Below, piece by piece: positions 53,680 to 57,819 of a DNA stretch of 64,000 bases. Made by a program: the position numbers and the translations under genes. This stretch comes from Elusimicrobiota bacterium (GTDB lineage: Bacteria; Elusimicrobiota; Elusimicrobia; UBA1565; UBA9628): assembly GCA_027452025.1 (NCBI GenBank), contig DAIDHI010000044.1, forward strand, positions 1,493 to 65,492. Direction: 5' to 3'. The stretch's first letter is position 1, and each line of letters begins with the position of its first letter. The notes beneath the pieces are model-generated. The model was not told the DNA's origin and ran no database searches. It was given only the letters and a program-made list of their open reading frames with translations.

Positions 53680-56391
53680 GTGATCGCGGCGGCGCTGTTT
53701 CTTTGGCTGGCGCGCCCGGCCGCCGCCGCCACGGGCCGCCTGGCCGTCATCGAGGACAGCCCCTTCCGCCTCTCCGTGACCCTCGACGATCCTCTCCAGC
53801 AGCTCATCAAGCTTTCGTCGCAGACGGCGTCCCTGCTCGACGTACAGGTCATCCCCGGCTATTACGCGGGCTCCGACTACCGCTTCGCCGTCGAGCAGGA
53901 AGAGCCGGTCGAGACGCGGACGATCCAGGCCGCGGTCCTGGAGTCGCCCTCCCAAGCCGCCTTGGTGTATCCGGCCATCCCTTCGCTGGTGGACGGCCTC
54001 AAGCGGCTGGCGGAGACGCCCGATTCCTTCAAGGAAAATTGGACGGTGCGTCTGTCGTCGCGCGCCGTGACGCTGTCCCAGGTCGCCGGGCCCGACGGCG
54101 AGGCGATCCTCTCGGCCCTGCTCAATCCCGACGAGGAAGCGGCGTTTTGGCAAAACACCGCCGGCGTGCTTTATCGCCTGCGCTGGCAGGGCCAGGACGC
54201 GCAGGTGCTCATCATCGGCAAGGTGTTCGGCGGCCTCGACCGGCTGGCCGGCGTGCTCGAGAATCAGCCCAAAGGGGTGCTCGGAGTCTCCCGCGGCGGG
54301 ATCATGTTCAGCCTGATCCCGGAGCTTTCGGGCCGCAACCTCCCCAAGACCCTGGCGCGCCTCGGCCTCAAGTATTCGGCGGTCTCGAACTCGGAAATGC
54401 GCCATTGGAGCGACGTGCTGGCCTACCAGACCGAGCACCCGGACGGCGTGCGGTTCTTGTCGGCGAACCTGGTCTATTCGACGGCGCCCGCGCAGTCGCT
54501 GCTGCCCGGCTACGCGCTGACGCGCGCCGGCGCCCTGAGCGTGGCGCTCGTCGGGCTGACGCCGCCGGGCGCCTCGAAATACCTGGGGGAAGCGGGGCTT
54601 TCCCGAGCCAAGATCGACGACCCCGCGCAGACCCTCGCCGCTCTCGTGCCGCGCCTGCGCGCGAAAGTCGACGCCGTCGTCGTCCTGGCCGAAGTCGACG
54701 ACGACCTCGAGCGCCGCCTGCGCAAGATTCCCGGAGTCGACTTGGTCATCGGCAGGACCGTGAACCTGCCGCCGGGCGTGCCGGGAGCCGTCCGGACGCT
54801 GTCCCAAAACGACCGCCCGGCCTACTCGCCCCCGCTGGACATCGCCTCCGTCTACGCCGGGGACTTCAACGGCTTCGAGCTCGACGTCTCCACCGGCGTC
54901 TCCGGGCGCGACTGGACGCTGCGCCAAAACGCCGTCCTGCTCGACGACTCCGTGCCGCAGCCCCACCGCTACCCCGGCTTCGACCCGGCCGCCTACGGGA
55001 TCACCCTCGCCTCGGGCACCGTGCTCATCCCCGCGGCGCGGCAGGCCTTTCCTCAATCCAGCGACCTGGCCCCGGTCTACACGGCGCGGGATTTCTGGAC
55101 GATGGCGGCCAGCCTCCTGGCCCGCCGCACGCATTCCGAGGCGGCGCTGCTGCGCGTGTCCCCGCTGCCTATCGAGCTCGCCGGGCAAATCAAGGAAAGC
55201 GTGGCGCGCGTCTGGCTAGAGAGCGAGGAGCCCGCGATGATCGTCTGGCTCAAAGGCTCCGACCTCAAGCCCTTGCTCGCCGAGGTCAAGGCCCAGCAGA
55301 ACGCGGCGCCGGGCCGCGTGTCCCAGTATCCGGCCATGACGGCCGGCGGCATACAGTCCGGCGAGAAGATCCACGGCGCGCCGATCCAGGACAATGAAGT
55401 CTACCGCGTCGCCACTTCCCAGGTGCTGGCCGACGCCCTCGGCCTCACTGCGGACCACCGGCACAAGTTCCTGAAGAAGACCATCGACCAATTGGTGCTC
55501 CAGGCTCTGCGGCGCCAAGCGGGCTCTCCGGCGCCCGACTACGGCCGCTGGGCGCGGGGCCGTCCGGTCGGAAACCCCGGCCTCTGGCGCGTCAATTTCC
55601 GCGACGTGGGGCTCAACATCCAGAACACCGACGTCGTCGCCAGCGACGCCTTCAACAACGTCCCCAATCCCCAGGTGCAGGCGTTCTCGCAGTTTTTGAT
55701 CGGCGGCGACTTCAAGGCCGACGCCGACTACATCCAGGATCCGCTCAAGTGGTCGAACACCCTGGAGATGGAATATGCGCGGGCGCAGGTCCGTCCGCGC
55801 GACATGCCCGAAGTGACCAACCTGGCCGCCAACCGCATCAGCCTCCTGACCATGGGCACCAAGCGCGCCGGCAGCGTCTCCGGGGAGCCCTGGCTGGCCG
55901 GCTCCTGGGGGCCGTCGCTGGGCCTGCAATACGACAGCCAGTTCGAGGCCAACCCGGGCCTGCCCCGGCAAAATCTCGTCAGCGCCTTCCCCGGCGTGCA
56001 GCTCTACGACGGCAGCTGGATCCAGTCCGTGGAATTCACCGGGGCCGTCCTGCGCGACCAGTCGCGCACTCCGCCCAATACCCAGTACGGCTTTCACACG
56101 CGCTGGATTCTCACCCACACGATCTCCTCGCCGGCGCCGATCACCTTCAACGGCGAGTTCTTCGCCAACTACTATTTCCTGACCCACGACGACACCAACC
56201 AGGATTTGCGCTTCGAGTCCGACGCCAACCTCAAGCTGCAGTTCCCGATCCGCAAGTATCTGAGCGTGGCGCCCTTCATCGAGCTTTACGTCTTCGCTCT
56301 CAAGGTCCAGCCGGTCTGGGGCTACAGCGCGATGACGGGAATCAGCATCGACTTCTCGCGCCTTTGGAAGCCGCAGTATGAAGCCTTCTGA
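53680..56391 (+). CDS. Large secreted protein with an OMP-like C-terminus (ends ...PQYEAF)
   Basis: Signal peptide, 903 aa. The C-terminal ~350 aa are rich in alternating aromatic/hydrophobic beta-strand patterns and the terminal residue is Phe. Confidence 0.55.
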   Translation: MIAAALFLWLARPAAAATGRLAVIEDSPFRLSVTLDDPLQQLIKLSSQTASLLDVQVIPGYYAGSDYRFAVEQEEPVETRTIQAAVLESPSQAALVYPAIPSLVDGLKRLAETPDSFKENWTVRLSSRAVTLSQVAGPDGEAILSALLNPDEEAAFWQNTAGVLYRLRWQGQDAQVLIIGKVFGGLDRLAGVLENQPKGVLGVSRGGIMFSLIPELSGRNLPKTLARLGLKYSAVSNSEMRHWSDVLAYQTEHPDGVRFLSANLVYSTAPAQSLLPGYALTRAGALSVALVGLTPPGASKYLGEAGLSRAKIDDPAQTLAALVPRLRAKVDAVVVLAEVDDDLERRLRKIPGVDLVIGRTVNLPPGVPGAVRTLSQNDRPAYSPPLDIASVYAGDFNGFELDVSTGVSGRDWTLRQNAVLLDDSVPQPHRYPGFDPAAYGITLASGTVLIPAARQAFPQSSDLAPVYTARDFWTMAASLLARRTHSEAALLRVSPLPIELAGQIKESVARVWLESEEPAMIVWLKGSDLKPLLAEVKAQQNAAPGRVSQYPAMTAGGIQSGEKIHGAPIQDNEVYRVATSQVLADALGLTADHRHKFLKKTIDQLVLQALRRQAGSPAPDYGRWARGRPVGNPGLWRVNFRDVGLNIQNTDVVASDAFNNVPNPQVQAFSQFLIGGDFKADADYIQDPLKWSNTLEMEYARAQVRPRDMPEVTNLAANRISLLTMGTKRAGSVSGEPWLAGSWGPSLGLQYDSQFEANPGLPRQNLVSAFPGVQLYDGSWIQSVEFTGAVLRDQSRTPPNTQYGFHTRWILTHTISSPAPITFNGEFFANYYFLTHDDTNQDLRFESDANLKLQFPIRKYLSVAPFIELYVFALKVQPVWGYSAMTGISIDFSRLWKPQYEAF

Positions 56392-56392
56392 G

Positions 56393-57299
56393 GGTGTCAG
56401 ACGTTGACTTGTTGACTTGTTTGGGCCGCGCGACACGCCGCCGATCGCGATATGCCTAGGAAGCGCGCTGTCTGCGCCAGTCCGATGCCCGCGTCACAGC
56501 AGCGCCGGACCAAGCGCTTGCGAACCAAGGAAATTTGGCGTTCCCGCCGACGGCGATCGCGAAGTTCTTCGGCGGCGATTTGCGCCTCGGCACACAACTC
56601 CAGGGCCCATCTTTCAATCTGACCTTCGCCGGGAACTTCTTCTTGTTCCCGCAATGTGATCGGCTCCATGTCCGCGCGAATTGTCGGTGTCGCCGGCAAG
56701 GATGCCGCGGAAACGAGATCCCGATACGTCAAGAGAGACCCCTCGAACAATCCCAAAACCAAATCCCTATCGACGAGGCCACGCCTCGCCGACTCGATTA
56801 TCTCTTGATGTCCAGACCACTCCCACTCGTCAGGATTGGAACACAAGCCGGCCTTCACGGGATTGCGACTGATATAGTGGATCAACTCAAATAGATAACG
56901 CGCGGACTGACAAGGCAGCGCCTTATAGCGGCTTTGGAATAGGTGTCCCTTACTGCCGCTGCGACGATTGAAGTAACAGGCGTAGCTCGTCAAGACGCGC
57001 TGGACGACGGTTGATAACGGCACCTGTCCCGCTTGGACCAGGAGATGAAAGTGATTTGGCATGAGGGAATAGGTGAAGAGGCGAAAGCCGCACCTGTCCT
57101 TCGCCCGCTTGAGAATATCCAGGAATCTAATCCAATCCTGGTCGACAAGAAAGATTTCTTTGCCGCCGTTACCTCTGGAAATAACATGGGAAATGAGTCC
57201 TGGTTCGAAATGTCGTGACGGGCGCCCCATGTTGAGAATACGGATTGGGCGCGAAAAAGTTCCCGTTTTCGGCAAGTCAACAAATCAACGTCTGACACC
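56393..57299. mobile_element. RayT/REP-associated tyrosine transposase element bounded by 26-27 bp imperfect inverted repeats
   Basis: IR-L gtgtcagacgttgacttgttgacttg (56394-56419) versus the reverse complement of IR-R gtgtcagacgttgatttgttgacttg (57273-57298), one mismatch. Interior GC is lower than the flanks. Inserted between the convergent OMP gene and thpR. Confidence 0.8.
56397..57230 (-). CDS. REP-associated tyrosine transposase (RayT / IS200-like Y1 HUH) with a C-terminal HTH-like extension
   Basis: HUH motif MPNHFHLLV, catalytic Tyr region SRYKAL, IS200-like start LISHVISRGN. ATG at 57230; the track's TTG start at 57275 lies inside IR-R. Confidence 0.8.
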   Translation of the reverse strand: MGRPSRHFEPGLISHVISRGNGGKEIFLVDQDWIRFLDILKRAKDRCGFRLFTYSLMPNHFHLLVQAGQVPLSTVVQRVLTSYACYFNRRSGSKGHLFQSRYKALPCQSARYLFELIHYISRNPVKAGLCSNPDEWEWSGHQEIIESARRGLVDRDLVLGLFEGSLLTYRDLVSAASLPATPTIRADMEPITLREQEEVPGEGQIERWALELCAEAQIAAEELRDRRRRERQISLVRKRLVRRCCDAGIGLAQTARFLGISRSAACRAAQTSQQVNV

Positions 57300-57819
57300 G
57301 AAGATGTTCATAGATCGGCCCTTTAGGGGAAAGGCGGCTGCGGACGAGGGCGATCGCCTCCACGCGACACGAGATGCGGCCGACCGGGATCGACTCGAGC
57401 GCTTGGCGCAGCCGACCGAGGTTCCGGTCCGAGCGCAGGCGTCCGAGAGTCAGGTGCGCCTGAAACGGCCGCTGCCCCGGCGCGAACGCGGCGCGAAGCG
57501 GCCGCGCCAGGCGTTCCAACTCACGGGCGCCCTGCTCCGCGCCCAGCCACAGCACCTTGGGATGCTCCAGGGAGCTGAACGCGCCGAGCCGGTCGAAAGC
57601 GGCCGTGAACGCGCCCTGGCCGGCGGCGGCTTCCTTTAACATCCGGGTCAACTCGGGCAGACGGCTCTGCGGCGTCTCGCCGAGGAAGGCCAGCGTCAGG
57701 TGCAGGTTGTCAGGCTCGACCCACTTGCAGTCGGGCCCCGTGGCGGCGAGCTTTTCGACGAGCGCGGCGACGGCGCGCCGGGCGTCCTCGGGAAGCATCG
57801 CGGCGAAAAACAGGCGCAT
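57277..57819 (-). CDS. thpR: RNA 2',3'-cyclic phosphodiesterase (2H phosphoesterase, LigT/ThpR); last 7 codons lie in the element's inverted repeat
   Basis: Two H-x-T/S-x motifs (HLTLAFLG; HLTLGRL). C-terminus ...GPIYEHL-RCQTLIC with the RCQTLIC codons and stop inside IR-R. Confidence 0.8.
   Translation of the reverse strand: MRLFFAAMLPEDARRAVAALVEKLAATGPDCKWVEPDNLHLTLAFLGETPQSRLPELTRMLKEAAAGQGAFTAAFDRLGAFSSLEHPKVLWLGAEQGARELERLARPLRAAFAPGQRPFQAHLTLGRLRSDRNLGRLRQALESIPVGRISCRVEAIALVRSRLSPKGPIYEHLRCQTLIC

What the first reader, a model, noticed from the sequence alone, without database searches (positions are those of the whole stretch)
56393..57299. RayT (REP-associated tyrosine transposase) element with 26-27 bp inverted repeats, inserted between convergent genes and fused to the 3' end of thpR
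A ~0.9-kb segment of visibly lower GC carries an IS200/RayT-type HUH Y1 transposase (HFH motif, SRY Tyr) with a C-terminal HTH-like extension. It is bounded by near-perfect inverted repeats (gtgtcagacgttgacttgttgacttg, one mismatch). Each repeat contains a tandem gttgactt direct repeat.

- The left repeat starts 2 nt after the outer-membrane gene's TGA.
- The right repeat supplies the last seven codons (RCQTLIC) and the stop of thpR.

The insertion therefore replaced or extended the native ThpR C-terminus. An inverted-repeat-flanked rayT is the REPtron architecture. This looks like a fairly recent, possibly still mobile, single-copy element.
Basis: seen in the sequence. Interest (0 to 1): 0.6.

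Follow-up and report, generated by a model that had tools for sequence, protein, structure and literature searches.

The report
TIR-flanked RayT-like transposase element (TIRtron)
A 907-bp foreign DNA element carrying a RayT-like tyrosine (HUH) transposase between 27-bp terminal inverted repeats sits between two conserved host genes and supplies the last seven codons of thpR. It belongs to the already described but experimentally unstudied "TIRtron/TIRYT" class, not to the REP-flanked REPtron class.

Summary
A 27-nt inverted repeat (26/27) at 56393-56419 and 57273-57299 brackets one 277-aa Y1/HUH gene. The unit is 55.7% GC against 67.5% for the window (GC3 0.63 against 0.84-0.92). The right repeat encodes the ThpR tail RCQTLIC plus the stop.

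The repeats are not REPs: the arms do not fold as hairpins, carry no GTAG tag, and have no further copy in the 64 kb. The architecture matches the published TIRtron/TIRYT class (Di Nocera 2013; Quentin 2018 subclass 2.1):
- the terminal motif GGTGTCAG fits GGGGWSAS at 7 of 8 positions;
- the C-terminal domain is a DnaA-domain-IV-like HTH;
- the gene's stop lies inside the 3' repeat.

Of 63 homologous loci, 52 carry such repeats. Relatives keep the ClpB-903aa-thpR-dtd synteny without the element, so it was inserted as a unit, probably recently.

The catalytic Tyr is Y119 (HYISRNP), not the "SRY" Tyr.

Beyond the literature, the repeats are bipartite: a conserved 12-nt end box followed by element-specific tandem 7-9-mers. 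The end box covaries with the HUH domain and the tandem repeats with the HTH domain. Related MAGs hold 60-95-bp repeat doublets.

Verdict: a new member of a known kind.

The parts
56393..57299 (-). Whole TIRtron: a 907-bp unit from repeat end to repeat end, 55.7% GC in a 67.5% GC window.
57273..57299 (-). 5' terminal inverted repeat (upstream of the transposase gene): GGTGTCAGAC GTTGATTT GTTGACTT G. It ends 43 nt before the ATG.
56393..56419 (+). 3' terminal inverted repeat: GGTGTCAGAC GTTGACTT GTTGACTT G. It contains the last 7 codons and the stop of the transposase gene.
56393..56404 (+). Conserved terminal box GGTGTCAGACGT. The family consensus is GGGGTCAGNCNT, and it fits the published GGGGWSAS motif at 7 of 8 positions. 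The mirror copy is at 57288-57299 on the minus strand.
   Evidence: PMC3733652.
56403..56418 (+). Tandem direct repeat GTTGACTT x2 (8/8). The mirror copy is at 57274-57289 on the minus strand (GTTGATTT GTTGACTT, 7/8). Proposed binding sites for the C-terminal HTH domain.
   Evidence: none of 300 shuffles matched the left arm. Family enrichment: 30/104 arms against 3.5 expected. Covariation.
56397..57230 (-). TIRYT gene: 277 aa plus stop, with ATG at 57230. The family alignment supports this start rather than the upstream TTG at 57275.
56781..57230 (-). N-terminal Y1/HUH nuclease domain (about residues 1-150). HUH = H60-F61-H62 (57045-57053). Catalytic Tyr = Y119 (56874-56876).
   Evidence: Pfam Y1_Tnp. 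4ER8 alignment. AF2 model with pLDDT 89.9 and Foldseek top hit 4ER8. Invariant columns.
56400..56633 (-). C-terminal five-helix HTH domain (about residues 200-277), homologous to DnaA domain IV.
   Evidence: The family profile hits DnaA domain IV structures 2HCB, 1L8Q and 1J1V (E 2e-7 to 4e-6). Pfam HTH_23 matches weakly (E 0.0055). Many homologues carry PF08299. Helices in the AF2 model.
57277..57819 (-). thpR (RNA 2',3'-cyclic phosphodiesterase, 180 aa), with both HxT motifs intact. The last 7 codons and the stop (57277-57300) are supplied by the 5' repeat.
   Evidence: TIGR02258 at 136 bits, covering residues 1-176 of the protein and 1-178 of the 180-position profile. Orthologue alignment.
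53680..56391 (+). 903-aa conserved Elusimicrobia protein, possibly an outer-membrane protein. Its native C-terminus ...WKPQYEAF is intact and its stop lies 1 nt before the 3' repeat.

Best explanation
This is a TIRtron. It is a compact (907-bp) mobile unit made of one gene for a TIR-associated tyrosine transposase (TIRYT) between two 27-bp terminal inverted repeats. The protein belongs to TnpA-REP subclass 2.1.2 of Quentin et al., which a preprint equates with RAYT Group 1 of Bertels et al.

The element entered a high-GC genome, probably Elusimicrobiota, by horizontal transfer. It was inserted as a unit at the junction of the convergent 903-aa gene and thpR. Its 5' repeat now provides the last seven codons and the stop of an otherwise intact thpR, which lies upstream of the transposase gene and runs in the same direction.

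Proposed mechanism (inferred, not shown):
1. The DnaA-domain-IV-like C-terminal HTH binds the two tandem GTTGACTT units inside each repeat as duplex DNA. This duplex could be ordinary dsDNA, or the stem formed when the two repeats of one strand pair with each other.
2. That positions the N-terminal HUH/Y1 domain on the conserved end box GGKGTCAGNCNT.
3. Y119 nicks one strand there and forms a 5'-phosphotyrosine link.
4. The element moves by single-strand 'peel-and-paste' without target-site duplication, as IS200/IS605 and RAYT enzymes do.
5. The same enzyme can mobilise 60-95-bp repeat doublets in trans.
For: **Shown.**
- The inverted repeat is real and unique in the window.
- The N-domain is RayT-like, and every residue invariant across the 42-sequence alignment, including HUH and Y119, is present.
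- The C-domain profile matches DnaA domain IV (E 2e-7).
- The published class definition is matched.
- In a survey of homologues, 52 of 63 loci have flanking repeats scoring at least 16, against 1 of 630 shuffled controls. The geometry is the same: the 5' repeat lies about 20-60 nt upstream in most loci, and the stop often lies inside the 3' repeat.
- The terminal box is conserved, and sequence information drops to zero immediately outside it.
- Tandem 7-9-mers are enriched just inside the box: 30/104 arms against 3.5 expected.
- Partial Mantel tests give a double dissociation. The repeat region tracks the HTH domain given the HUH domain (r 0.15, P 0.0015) but not the reverse (r 0.01, P 0.42). 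The end box tracks the HUH domain given the HTH domain (r 0.23, P 0.0005) but not the reverse (r -0.07, P 0.86).
- The element has foreign composition.
- Synteny without the element is seen in L008-L011. In L009 the two host genes overlap by 4 nt.
- No target-site duplication is present.
- Repeat doublets occur together with one full element each in three MAGs. One doublet in a fourth MAG has an arm 27/27 identical to the window repeat.
Against: - No biochemistry exists for any TIRYT. Only three papers mention the term.
- The cleavage site, the strand cut and the role of the HTH are inferences.
- The partial Mantel correlations are small, and the method is known to be liberal with phylogenetically structured data.
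- Only about 30% of repeat arms show clean tandem repeats.
- The single protein's own HTH match in Pfam is weak (E 0.0055).
- Precise in-silico excision does not restore an orthologue-like ThpR tail; it gives a 17-aa extension. So the insertion event cannot be reconstructed.
- No second copy was found in the 64 kb, and the rest of the source genome could not be searched.
- No sigma-70-like promoter was found in front of the gene.
Confidence: 0.75

Rival explanations
1. It is a REPtron in the strict sense. On this view the gene is a domesticated, immobile, single-copy RAYT. Its flanking repeats are members of a genome-wide REP/REPIN family that the enzyme disseminates, and the gene itself does not move.
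For: - The N-domain's closest solved relative is E. coli TnpA-REP.
- A JGI annotation calls a homologue RayT.
- Three related MAGs each hold one full element plus several hairpin-forming repeat doublets, which is REPIN-like.
- P0002 occurs in one genomic context across 15 contigs.
Against: - The arms are not palindromic and do not fold. They carry no GTAG/CGTC tag.
- The protein scores below the NCBIfam RayT cutoff.
- No other copy exists in the 64 kb.
- GC3 of 0.63 against about 0.9 for the host, and absence from the syntenic site in relatives, show that the whole unit including the gene arrived recently.
- The literature places this clade outside the REP-associated subclasses.
Confidence: 0.15
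2. It is not a transposon at all. On this view the protein is an exapted HTH regulator or nuclease, and the flanking inverted repeats are operators for autoregulation, or binding sites used for a host function such as one related to replication.
For: - The DnaA-IV-like domain is a dsDNA-binding module.
- Repeats at fixed distances around the gene, with TTGAC-like -35 hexamers near the start in several family members, would suit autoregulation.
- The gene is typically single-copy.
Against: - The catalytic HUH and Tyr are invariant in 42 homologues.
- The same repeats occur as dispersed doublets away from the gene.
- An identical repeat occurs in an unrelated MAG.
- Conservation ends abruptly at the outer G-run, as expected for element termini.
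- The unit is compositionally foreign and bounded exactly by the repeats.
Confidence: 0.07
3. It is a chance inverted repeat or an assembly artefact around an ordinary IS200-type gene.
For: None beyond the fact that the source is a metagenome-assembled contig.
Against: - No match in 100 shuffles.
- Related repeats occur at homologues sharing 40% identity, in independent assemblies.
Confidence: 0.01

Closest known systems
TIRtron / TIRYT (Di Nocera, De Gregorio & Rocco 2013, PMC3733652) = TnpA-REP subclass 2.1, subgroup 2.1.2 (Quentin et al. 2018, PMC6006769); equated with RAYT Group 1 of Bertels et al. 2017 by bioRxiv 10.1101/2020.03.09.984088
   Same: - A RayT-like Y1/HUH protein, longer than RAYTs.
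- A C-terminal Bac_DnaA_C/HTH_23-type domain.
- A gene bracketed by long terminal inverted repeats unrelated to REPs, starting with GGGGWSAS (here GGTGTCAG).
- The repeat overlaps the 3' end of the gene.
- Some genomes hold moderately abundant repeat dimers.
   Different: - It comes from a lineage that appears to be Elusimicrobiota. The 26 originally listed examples could not be checked for this phylum.
- It has T instead of G at position 3 of the motif.
- It belongs to a short-linker subgroup (277 aa against 310-335 aa typical).
- The nearest protein in 5.8 billion sequences is only 40% identical.
- I did not find the bipartite repeat (end box plus tandem 8-mers) or its domain-specific covariation in the passages I read from these papers. 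Their figures were not available.
REPtron / RAYT (TnpA-REP; E. coli YafM, PDB 4ER8) with REP/BIME/REPIN
   Same: - The same HUH/Y1 fold and catalytic residues.
- A gene flanked by repeats in inverted orientation.
- Short hairpin-forming doublets dispersed in some host genomes.
- No target-site duplication.
   Different: - REPs are 20-40-nt imperfect palindromes with a GTAG tag, present in hundreds of copies. Here the arms are non-palindromic 27-mers with internal direct repeats.
- RAYTs lack the DnaA-like HTH.
- RAYTs are vertically inherited, whereas this unit is compositionally foreign.
IS200/IS605 family (IS608, ISDra2 TnpA)
   Same: - A Y1 HUH transposase fold (Foldseek hits 2XQC, 2VJV and others).
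- Probably single-strand 'peel-and-paste' transposition without target-site duplication.
   Different: - IS200/IS605 ends are asymmetric subterminal hairpins, not terminal inverted repeats.
- There is no HTH domain.
- There is no tnpB.
DnaA domain IV binding 9-bp DnaA boxes
   Same: The C-terminal domain is homologous to it (E 2e-7). The candidate target is a short repeated duplex motif.
   Different: The repeat GTTGACTT bears no resemblance to TTATNCACA. The repeats differ between elements.

Membership tests
TIRtron / TIRYT (Di Nocera 2013) | RAYT-like Y1 protein with HUH and catalytic Tyr conserved. | tested here: met
   Pfam Y1_Tnp at 41.9 bits against a cutoff of 23. H60/H62 and Y119 are invariant and align with 4ER8. 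Foldseek top hit is 4ER8.
TIRtron / TIRYT (Di Nocera 2013) | Gene flanked by long terminal inverted repeats that are not REPs. | tested here: met
   27-nt repeat, 26/27 complementary, directly bracketing the gene. The arms do not fold.
TIRtron / TIRYT (Di Nocera 2013) | Repeat carries the GGGGWSAS motif at its outer end (main TIRYT group). | tested here: met
   GGTGTCAG fits at 7 of 8 positions. It fits the family box GGGGTCAGNCNT derived from 32 loci.
TnpA-REP subclass 2.1.2 (Quentin 2018) | C-terminal extension similar to Bac_DnaA_C / HTH_23 / HTH_28. | tested here: met
   HTH_23 at E 0.0055 for the single protein. The family profile hits DnaA domain IV at E 2e-7. Homologues carry PF08299.
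TnpA-REP subclass 2.1.2 (Quentin 2018) | Placement in the subclass 2.1 clade of their phylogeny. | not tested
Assignment rests on domain architecture and repeat motif only.
REPtron / RAYT | Flanking repeats are REPs: short imperfect palindromes that each form a hairpin, tagged by GTAG (or CGTC). | tested here: not met
   DNA folding of all four arm strands gives z-scores of -0.66 to +0.13. There is no GTAG at either end.
REPtron / RAYT | The repeat family is dispersed at high copy number in the host genome. | tested here: inconclusive
   No extra copies in the 64-kb window. The source genome is absent from genome contigs. Related MAGs hold a few doublets, not hundreds, but the search needed an exact pattern match.
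REPtron / RAYT | Protein reaches the curated RayT equivalog threshold. | tested here: not met
   NCBIfam NF047646 at 61 bits against a cutoff of 80.
IS200/IS605 | Asymmetric ends with subterminal hairpins and no terminal inverted repeats; about 130-150-aa TnpA. | tested here: not met
   Terminal inverted repeats are present. The protein has 277 aa with an extra HTH domain.
Active transposon (any family) | Demonstrated excision or insertion, or multiple near-identical copies. | not testable with these tools
   Only indirect evidence is available: foreign GC3, an occupied site against empty sites in distant relatives, and an intact ORF and repeats.

The most novel reading that the evidence does not exclude
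TIRtrons are a distinct, modular insertion-sequence family whose ends are read by two separate protein modules. The HUH/Y1 domain would recognise and cut a nearly universal 12-nt end box (GGGGTCAGNCNT or GGGGACGYNCNT). A rapidly diversifying DnaA-domain-IV-like HTH would read element-specific tandem 7-9-bp repeats just inside the box, possibly on the duplex stem formed when the two repeats of a single strand pair. The HTH-repeat pairing would then set which full elements and which 60-95-bp repeat doublets a given enzyme can mobilise. This would be a hybrid dsDNA-recognition / ssDNA-cleavage mechanism not described for any Y1 transposase.
Probability: 0.4. Interest if true: 0.6.

Novelty: new member of a known kind. 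Interest (0 to 1): 0.35.

Why it matters
For this window it mainly corrects an annotation. The element is a TIRtron, not a REPtron. It is a recent horizontal arrival that rewrote the last seven residues of ThpR without disabling it.

More broadly, TIRYTs form the largest TnpA-REP subclass (14.9% of strains in Quentin et al.), yet none has been studied biochemically. This window provides a compact, intact, apparently young example with near-perfect ends. The family survey gives a concrete, testable model: end box recognised by HUH, tandem repeats recognised by a DnaA-like HTH. That model could be checked with a few oligonucleotides and one purified protein.

Tried and rejected
- **REP-like hairpins.** I folded all four arm strands as ssDNA and none beat shuffles. 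Rejected.
- **Other copies in the window.** I searched with the 27-mer, the 17-mer (3 mismatches allowed) and the 12-nt box. Only the two arms matched. tblastn with 8 family proteins found only this gene.
- **Genome-wide copy count in the source genome.** An exact-protein lookup of P0001 found no record.
- **Recovering the ancestral ThpR tail.** The closest relatives are only 40-45% identical in ThpR. In-silico precise excision gives ...YEHL+PQKASYCGFQRRARSRC*, which is not orthologue-like. Unresolved.
- **Target-site motif or duplication.** Flanks of 97 repeat ends carry essentially no information. The TTCTGA/TTCTAG flank shared by the window, L013 and L012 is anecdotal.
- **Promoter or terminator between thpR and the transposase gene.** None predicted.
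- **Whole-element multi-copy evidence.** Contexts of P0048 differ upstream only and are not conclusive.
- **phmmer of the single protein against PDB.** Only noise. The family profile was needed.
- **Esi regulator paper (PMC5442856).** It came up in the literature search but is irrelevant.
Full report

Yes. The repeat finder reports one outstanding inverted repeat. Its arms lie at 56393-56419 and 57273-57299, are 27 nt long with 26/27 complementary, and have 853 nt between them. The motif has no third copy in the 64-kb window even with 3 mismatches, and none appeared in 100 dinucleotide shuffles. Each arm reads GGTGTCAGAC followed by two tandem 8-mers: GTTGACTT GTTGACTT on the left, GTTGATTT GTTGACTT on the right.

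The 907-bp unit is 55.7% GC, against 67.6% and 69.6% for the 5-kb flanks. GC3 of its gene is 0.63, against 0.84-0.92 for thpR, the 903-aa gene and clpB.

The only gene inside runs 56400-57230 on the minus strand and encodes 277 aa. It passes Pfam Y1_Tnp (41.9 bits against a cutoff of 23) and has HFH at residues 60-62. Its stop codon (56397-56399) lies inside the left repeat.

thpR (57280-57819, minus strand; TIGR02258 at 136 bits, covering residues 1-176 of the protein and 1-178 of the 180-position profile) ends cgg tgt cag acg ttg att tgt tga. This gives RCQTLIC*, which lies in the right repeat. The upstream 903-aa gene stops at 56391, 1 nt before the left repeat. Its ...WKPQYEAF end is the native consensus of 27 homologues.

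**2. What the protein is**

A profile built from 42 homologues hits two kinds of solved structure:
- E. coli TnpA-REP/RayT (4ER8, E 7.6e-9) with the N-terminal half;
- DnaA domain IV (2HCB, 1L8Q, 1J1V; E 2e-7 to 4e-6) with profile positions 208-300, i.e. the C-terminal domain (about residues 200-277 of the window protein).

An AlphaFold2 model (pLDDT 89.9) shows an HUH alpha/beta domain, a low-confidence linker (residues about 180-200) and a five-helix C-terminal domain. Foldseek ranks 4ER8 first (TM 0.74 on the target), followed by the ISDra2, IS608 and IS200 TnpA structures.

In the 4ER8 alignment, Y115 lines up with the window's Y119 in IHYISRNP. That Y115 is the RayT nucleophile is my recollection of the 4ER8 paper. 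Y119 is invariant in all 42 sequences.

The protein scores below the NCBIfam RayT equivalog cutoff (61 against 80 bits).

**3. The repeats are not REPs**

None of the four arm strands folds better than shuffles as ssDNA (z-scores -0.66 to +0.13). There is no GTAG or CGTC tag. Two defining REP features are therefore tested and not met.

**4. Related loci**

The nearest protein in the 5.8-billion-sequence database is only 40% identical. Even so, its gene (L001/L021) is bracketed by a clearly related 30-nt repeat, GGTGTCATACTTTAACTTTTTGACTTGTTG. Another 39-40% homologue in an Elusimicrobiota MAG (L007) has CGGCGTCAGGCAYCGCAACTT....

I then fetched 80 homologous loci from metagenomes and scored the best inverted repeat spanning each gene:
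- 52 of 63 evaluable loci score at least 16, against 1 of 630 shuffled controls.
- The geometry is constant. In most loci the 5' repeat lies about 20-60 nt upstream of the start, and the stop codon often lies inside the 3' repeat, as in the window (43 nt and -22 nt).
- Anchored alignments give a conserved outer box: GGGGTCAGNCNT in 32 loci or GGGGACGYNCNT in 17.
- Sequence information drops to zero immediately outside the G-run. There is no flank motif and no target-site duplication.

**5. The literature already has a name for this**

Di Nocera et al. 2013 (PMC3733652) described RAYT-like genes flanked by long terminal inverted repeats unrelated to REPs. They named the units TIRtrons and the proteins TIRYTs. 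They noted the shared motif GGGGWSAS and reported moderately abundant repeat families, often as dimers, in some genomes.

Quentin et al. 2018 (PMC6006769) placed 20 of those 26 proteins in TnpA-REP subclass 2.1. Subgroup 2.1.2 carries Bac_DnaA_C/HTH_23/HTH_28-like C-termini and has no REPs nearby. A preprint equates subclass 2.1 with RAYT Group 1 of Bertels et al. 2017. That group has the highest duplication rate and the only plasmid presence among true RAYT groups.

Only three papers in the library mention TIRYT, and none contains biochemistry.

The window element meets every tested feature of this class: Y1/HUH, terminal repeats, GGTGTCAG (7 of 8 against GGGGWSAS), a DnaA-IV-like HTH, and the repeat-gene overlap. 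It is a new member of a known kind.

**6. Insertion history**

The 903-aa protein's homologues are all from Elusimicrobia/Elusimicrobiota MAGs at no more than 51% identity, so the source is probably a deep-branching member of that phylum.

Four of these loci keep the order ClpB, 900-aa protein, (0-2 genes), thpR (convergent); dtd follows thpR in the three loci that extend that far. None has a TIRYT. In L009/L010 the two genes overlap by 4 nt.

ThpR orthologues end ...L(S/A)ExxLxx at the same alignment column as the window's ...LRCQTLIC. So the repeat replaced a tail of equal length and happens to keep the conserved Leu. Both HxT motifs are intact.

Together with the GC3 gap, this says the repeat-bounded unit arrived by horizontal transfer and was inserted as a unit. 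The gap is much larger than for the L001 element (0.83 against 0.90) and larger than for the L007 element (0.78 against 0.97), so the arrival was probably recent.

The ancestral junction cannot be reconstructed. Precise in-silico excision gives a 17-aa non-orthologous tail.

**7. Dispersed copies elsewhere**

It did not contain the source genome but found 12 loci in four MAGs.

Three MAGs (FK5.bin95, DBS1-2.bin105 and an Elusimicrobia MAG) each hold one full TIRtron plus one to four 68-95-bp units made of two repeats facing each other. These units fold into long perfect hairpins (-30 to -40 kcal/mol). In most doublets the two arms are identical to each other over about 26-29 nt, while the doublets differ from one another.

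A fourth MAG, labelled Gammaproteobacteria, has a 60-bp doublet whose arm is 27/27 identical to the window's left repeat. It sits 1 nt after a stop codon between convergent genes, on a contig with no other similarity to the window.

This is the repeat-based analogue of REPINs. It agrees with Di Nocera's 'TIR dimers' and shows that this particular repeat type crosses lineages.

**8. How it probably works**

The steps below are inferred unless stated otherwise.

Across the family, tandem 7-9-nt direct repeats start 8-12 nt from the terminus far more often than chance. With at most 1 mismatch, 30 of 104 arms show them against 3.5 expected (maximum 9 in 300 shuffles). Perfect repeats occur in 10 arms against 0.2 expected. 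Their sequence differs between elements (TTAACTTT, TGAGTTAT, TTGACAT, TGCGATT and others).

Partial Mantel tests on 52 loci give a double dissociation:
- divergence of the repeat region tracks the C-terminal HTH domain after controlling for the HUH domain (r 0.15, P 0.0015), but not the reverse (r 0.01, P 0.42);
- divergence of the 10-nt end box tracks the HUH domain after controlling for the HTH domain (r 0.23, P 0.0005), but not the reverse (r -0.07, P 0.86).

The effects are small and the test is liberal, so this is suggestive only.

The model is as follows. The DnaA-IV-like HTH docks on the tandem repeats as duplex DNA. The HUH/Y1 domain nicks at or beside the end box with Y119. Movement follows the single-strand, duplication-free route of IS200/IS605 and RAYT enzymes. 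On a single strand the two repeats can pair with each other, trivially so in the doublets. That pairing would recreate the duplex HTH sites and bring both cleavage points to the base of one stem.

No sigma-70-like promoter or terminator separates thpR from the transposase gene, so read-through expression from thpR is possible.

**9. Verdict**

- Observation: confirmed.
- Interpretation: partly supported. RayT-like yes; REPtron no, it is a TIRtron/TIRYT. The catalytic Tyr was mis-assigned. Recent insertion is supported. Copy number is untested.
- Novelty: new member of a known kind.
- Interest: modest (0.35). It is raised slightly because the class is experimentally untouched and the survey yields a specific, cheap-to-test model of modular end recognition.

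Noticed in passing
L001:2062-2938 (same element as L021): A second host gene ends inside a TIRtron 5' repeat, in the same frame and at the same TGA as window thpR. It is a full-length rmlD-like gene (Pfam RmlD_sub_bind 1-282/287) that ends ...GCHTLTF*, compared with the window's ...RCQTLIC*. In both cases the host gene is upstream of the transposase gene and co-directional with it.
   Followed up: partly
L013:1558-1617 (DAIDHD010000046.1, MAG labelled Gammaproteobacteria): A 60-bp repeat doublet whose arm is 27/27 identical to the window's left repeat. It starts 1 nt after the stop of a 451-aa ORF, between convergent genes. Its flank TTCTAGg resembles the window's TTCTGAg. No cognate transposase above 40% identity to the window's was found in the protein database.
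   Followed up: partly
L007:3850-3877 and L019:3369-3386: Two elements carry an extra, inner copy of the 3'-end repeat about 15-45 nt inside the outer one. These could be nested or duplicated ends.
   Followed up: no
L015, L018, L022, L023 (repeat doublets): Within each doublet the two arms are identical over about 26-29 nt. Between doublets the arms differ at positions 8, 14 and 22. This arm-to-arm covariation is like that reported for REPINs.
   Followed up: partly
80 metagenome loci L024-L103: Two terminal-box types split the family: GGGGTCAGNCNT (32 loci) and GGGGACGYNCNT (17). The second type does not fit the published GGGGWSAS consensus at position 7.
   Followed up: partly
Repeat ends of the surveyed loci: A long ORF ends within -12 to +45 nt of the repeat start at 13 of 85 ends, against 6% of random positions. 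Elements tend to abut or overlap the 3' ends of genes.
   Followed up: partly
window:57280-57819 (ThpR): The window ThpR lacks a 5-residue segment (EAEGx) that is present in all four compared orthologues, between the two HxT motifs.
   Followed up: no
window:53680-56391: This 903-aa protein is conserved only in Elusimicrobia MAGs and has no Pfam domain. It has a weak UshA-like 5'-nucleotidase match at residues 218-358, and most homologues share its OMP-like C-terminal ...YExF end. A minority end ...LLGER instead.
   Followed up: partly
L104-L111 (P0048 loci): One identical TIRYT sits next to a 90-aa DUF4143 fragment. It has two alternative upstream contexts in different metagenomes, which may reflect insertion into an ATPase gene plus strain-level rearrangement.
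   Followed up: no
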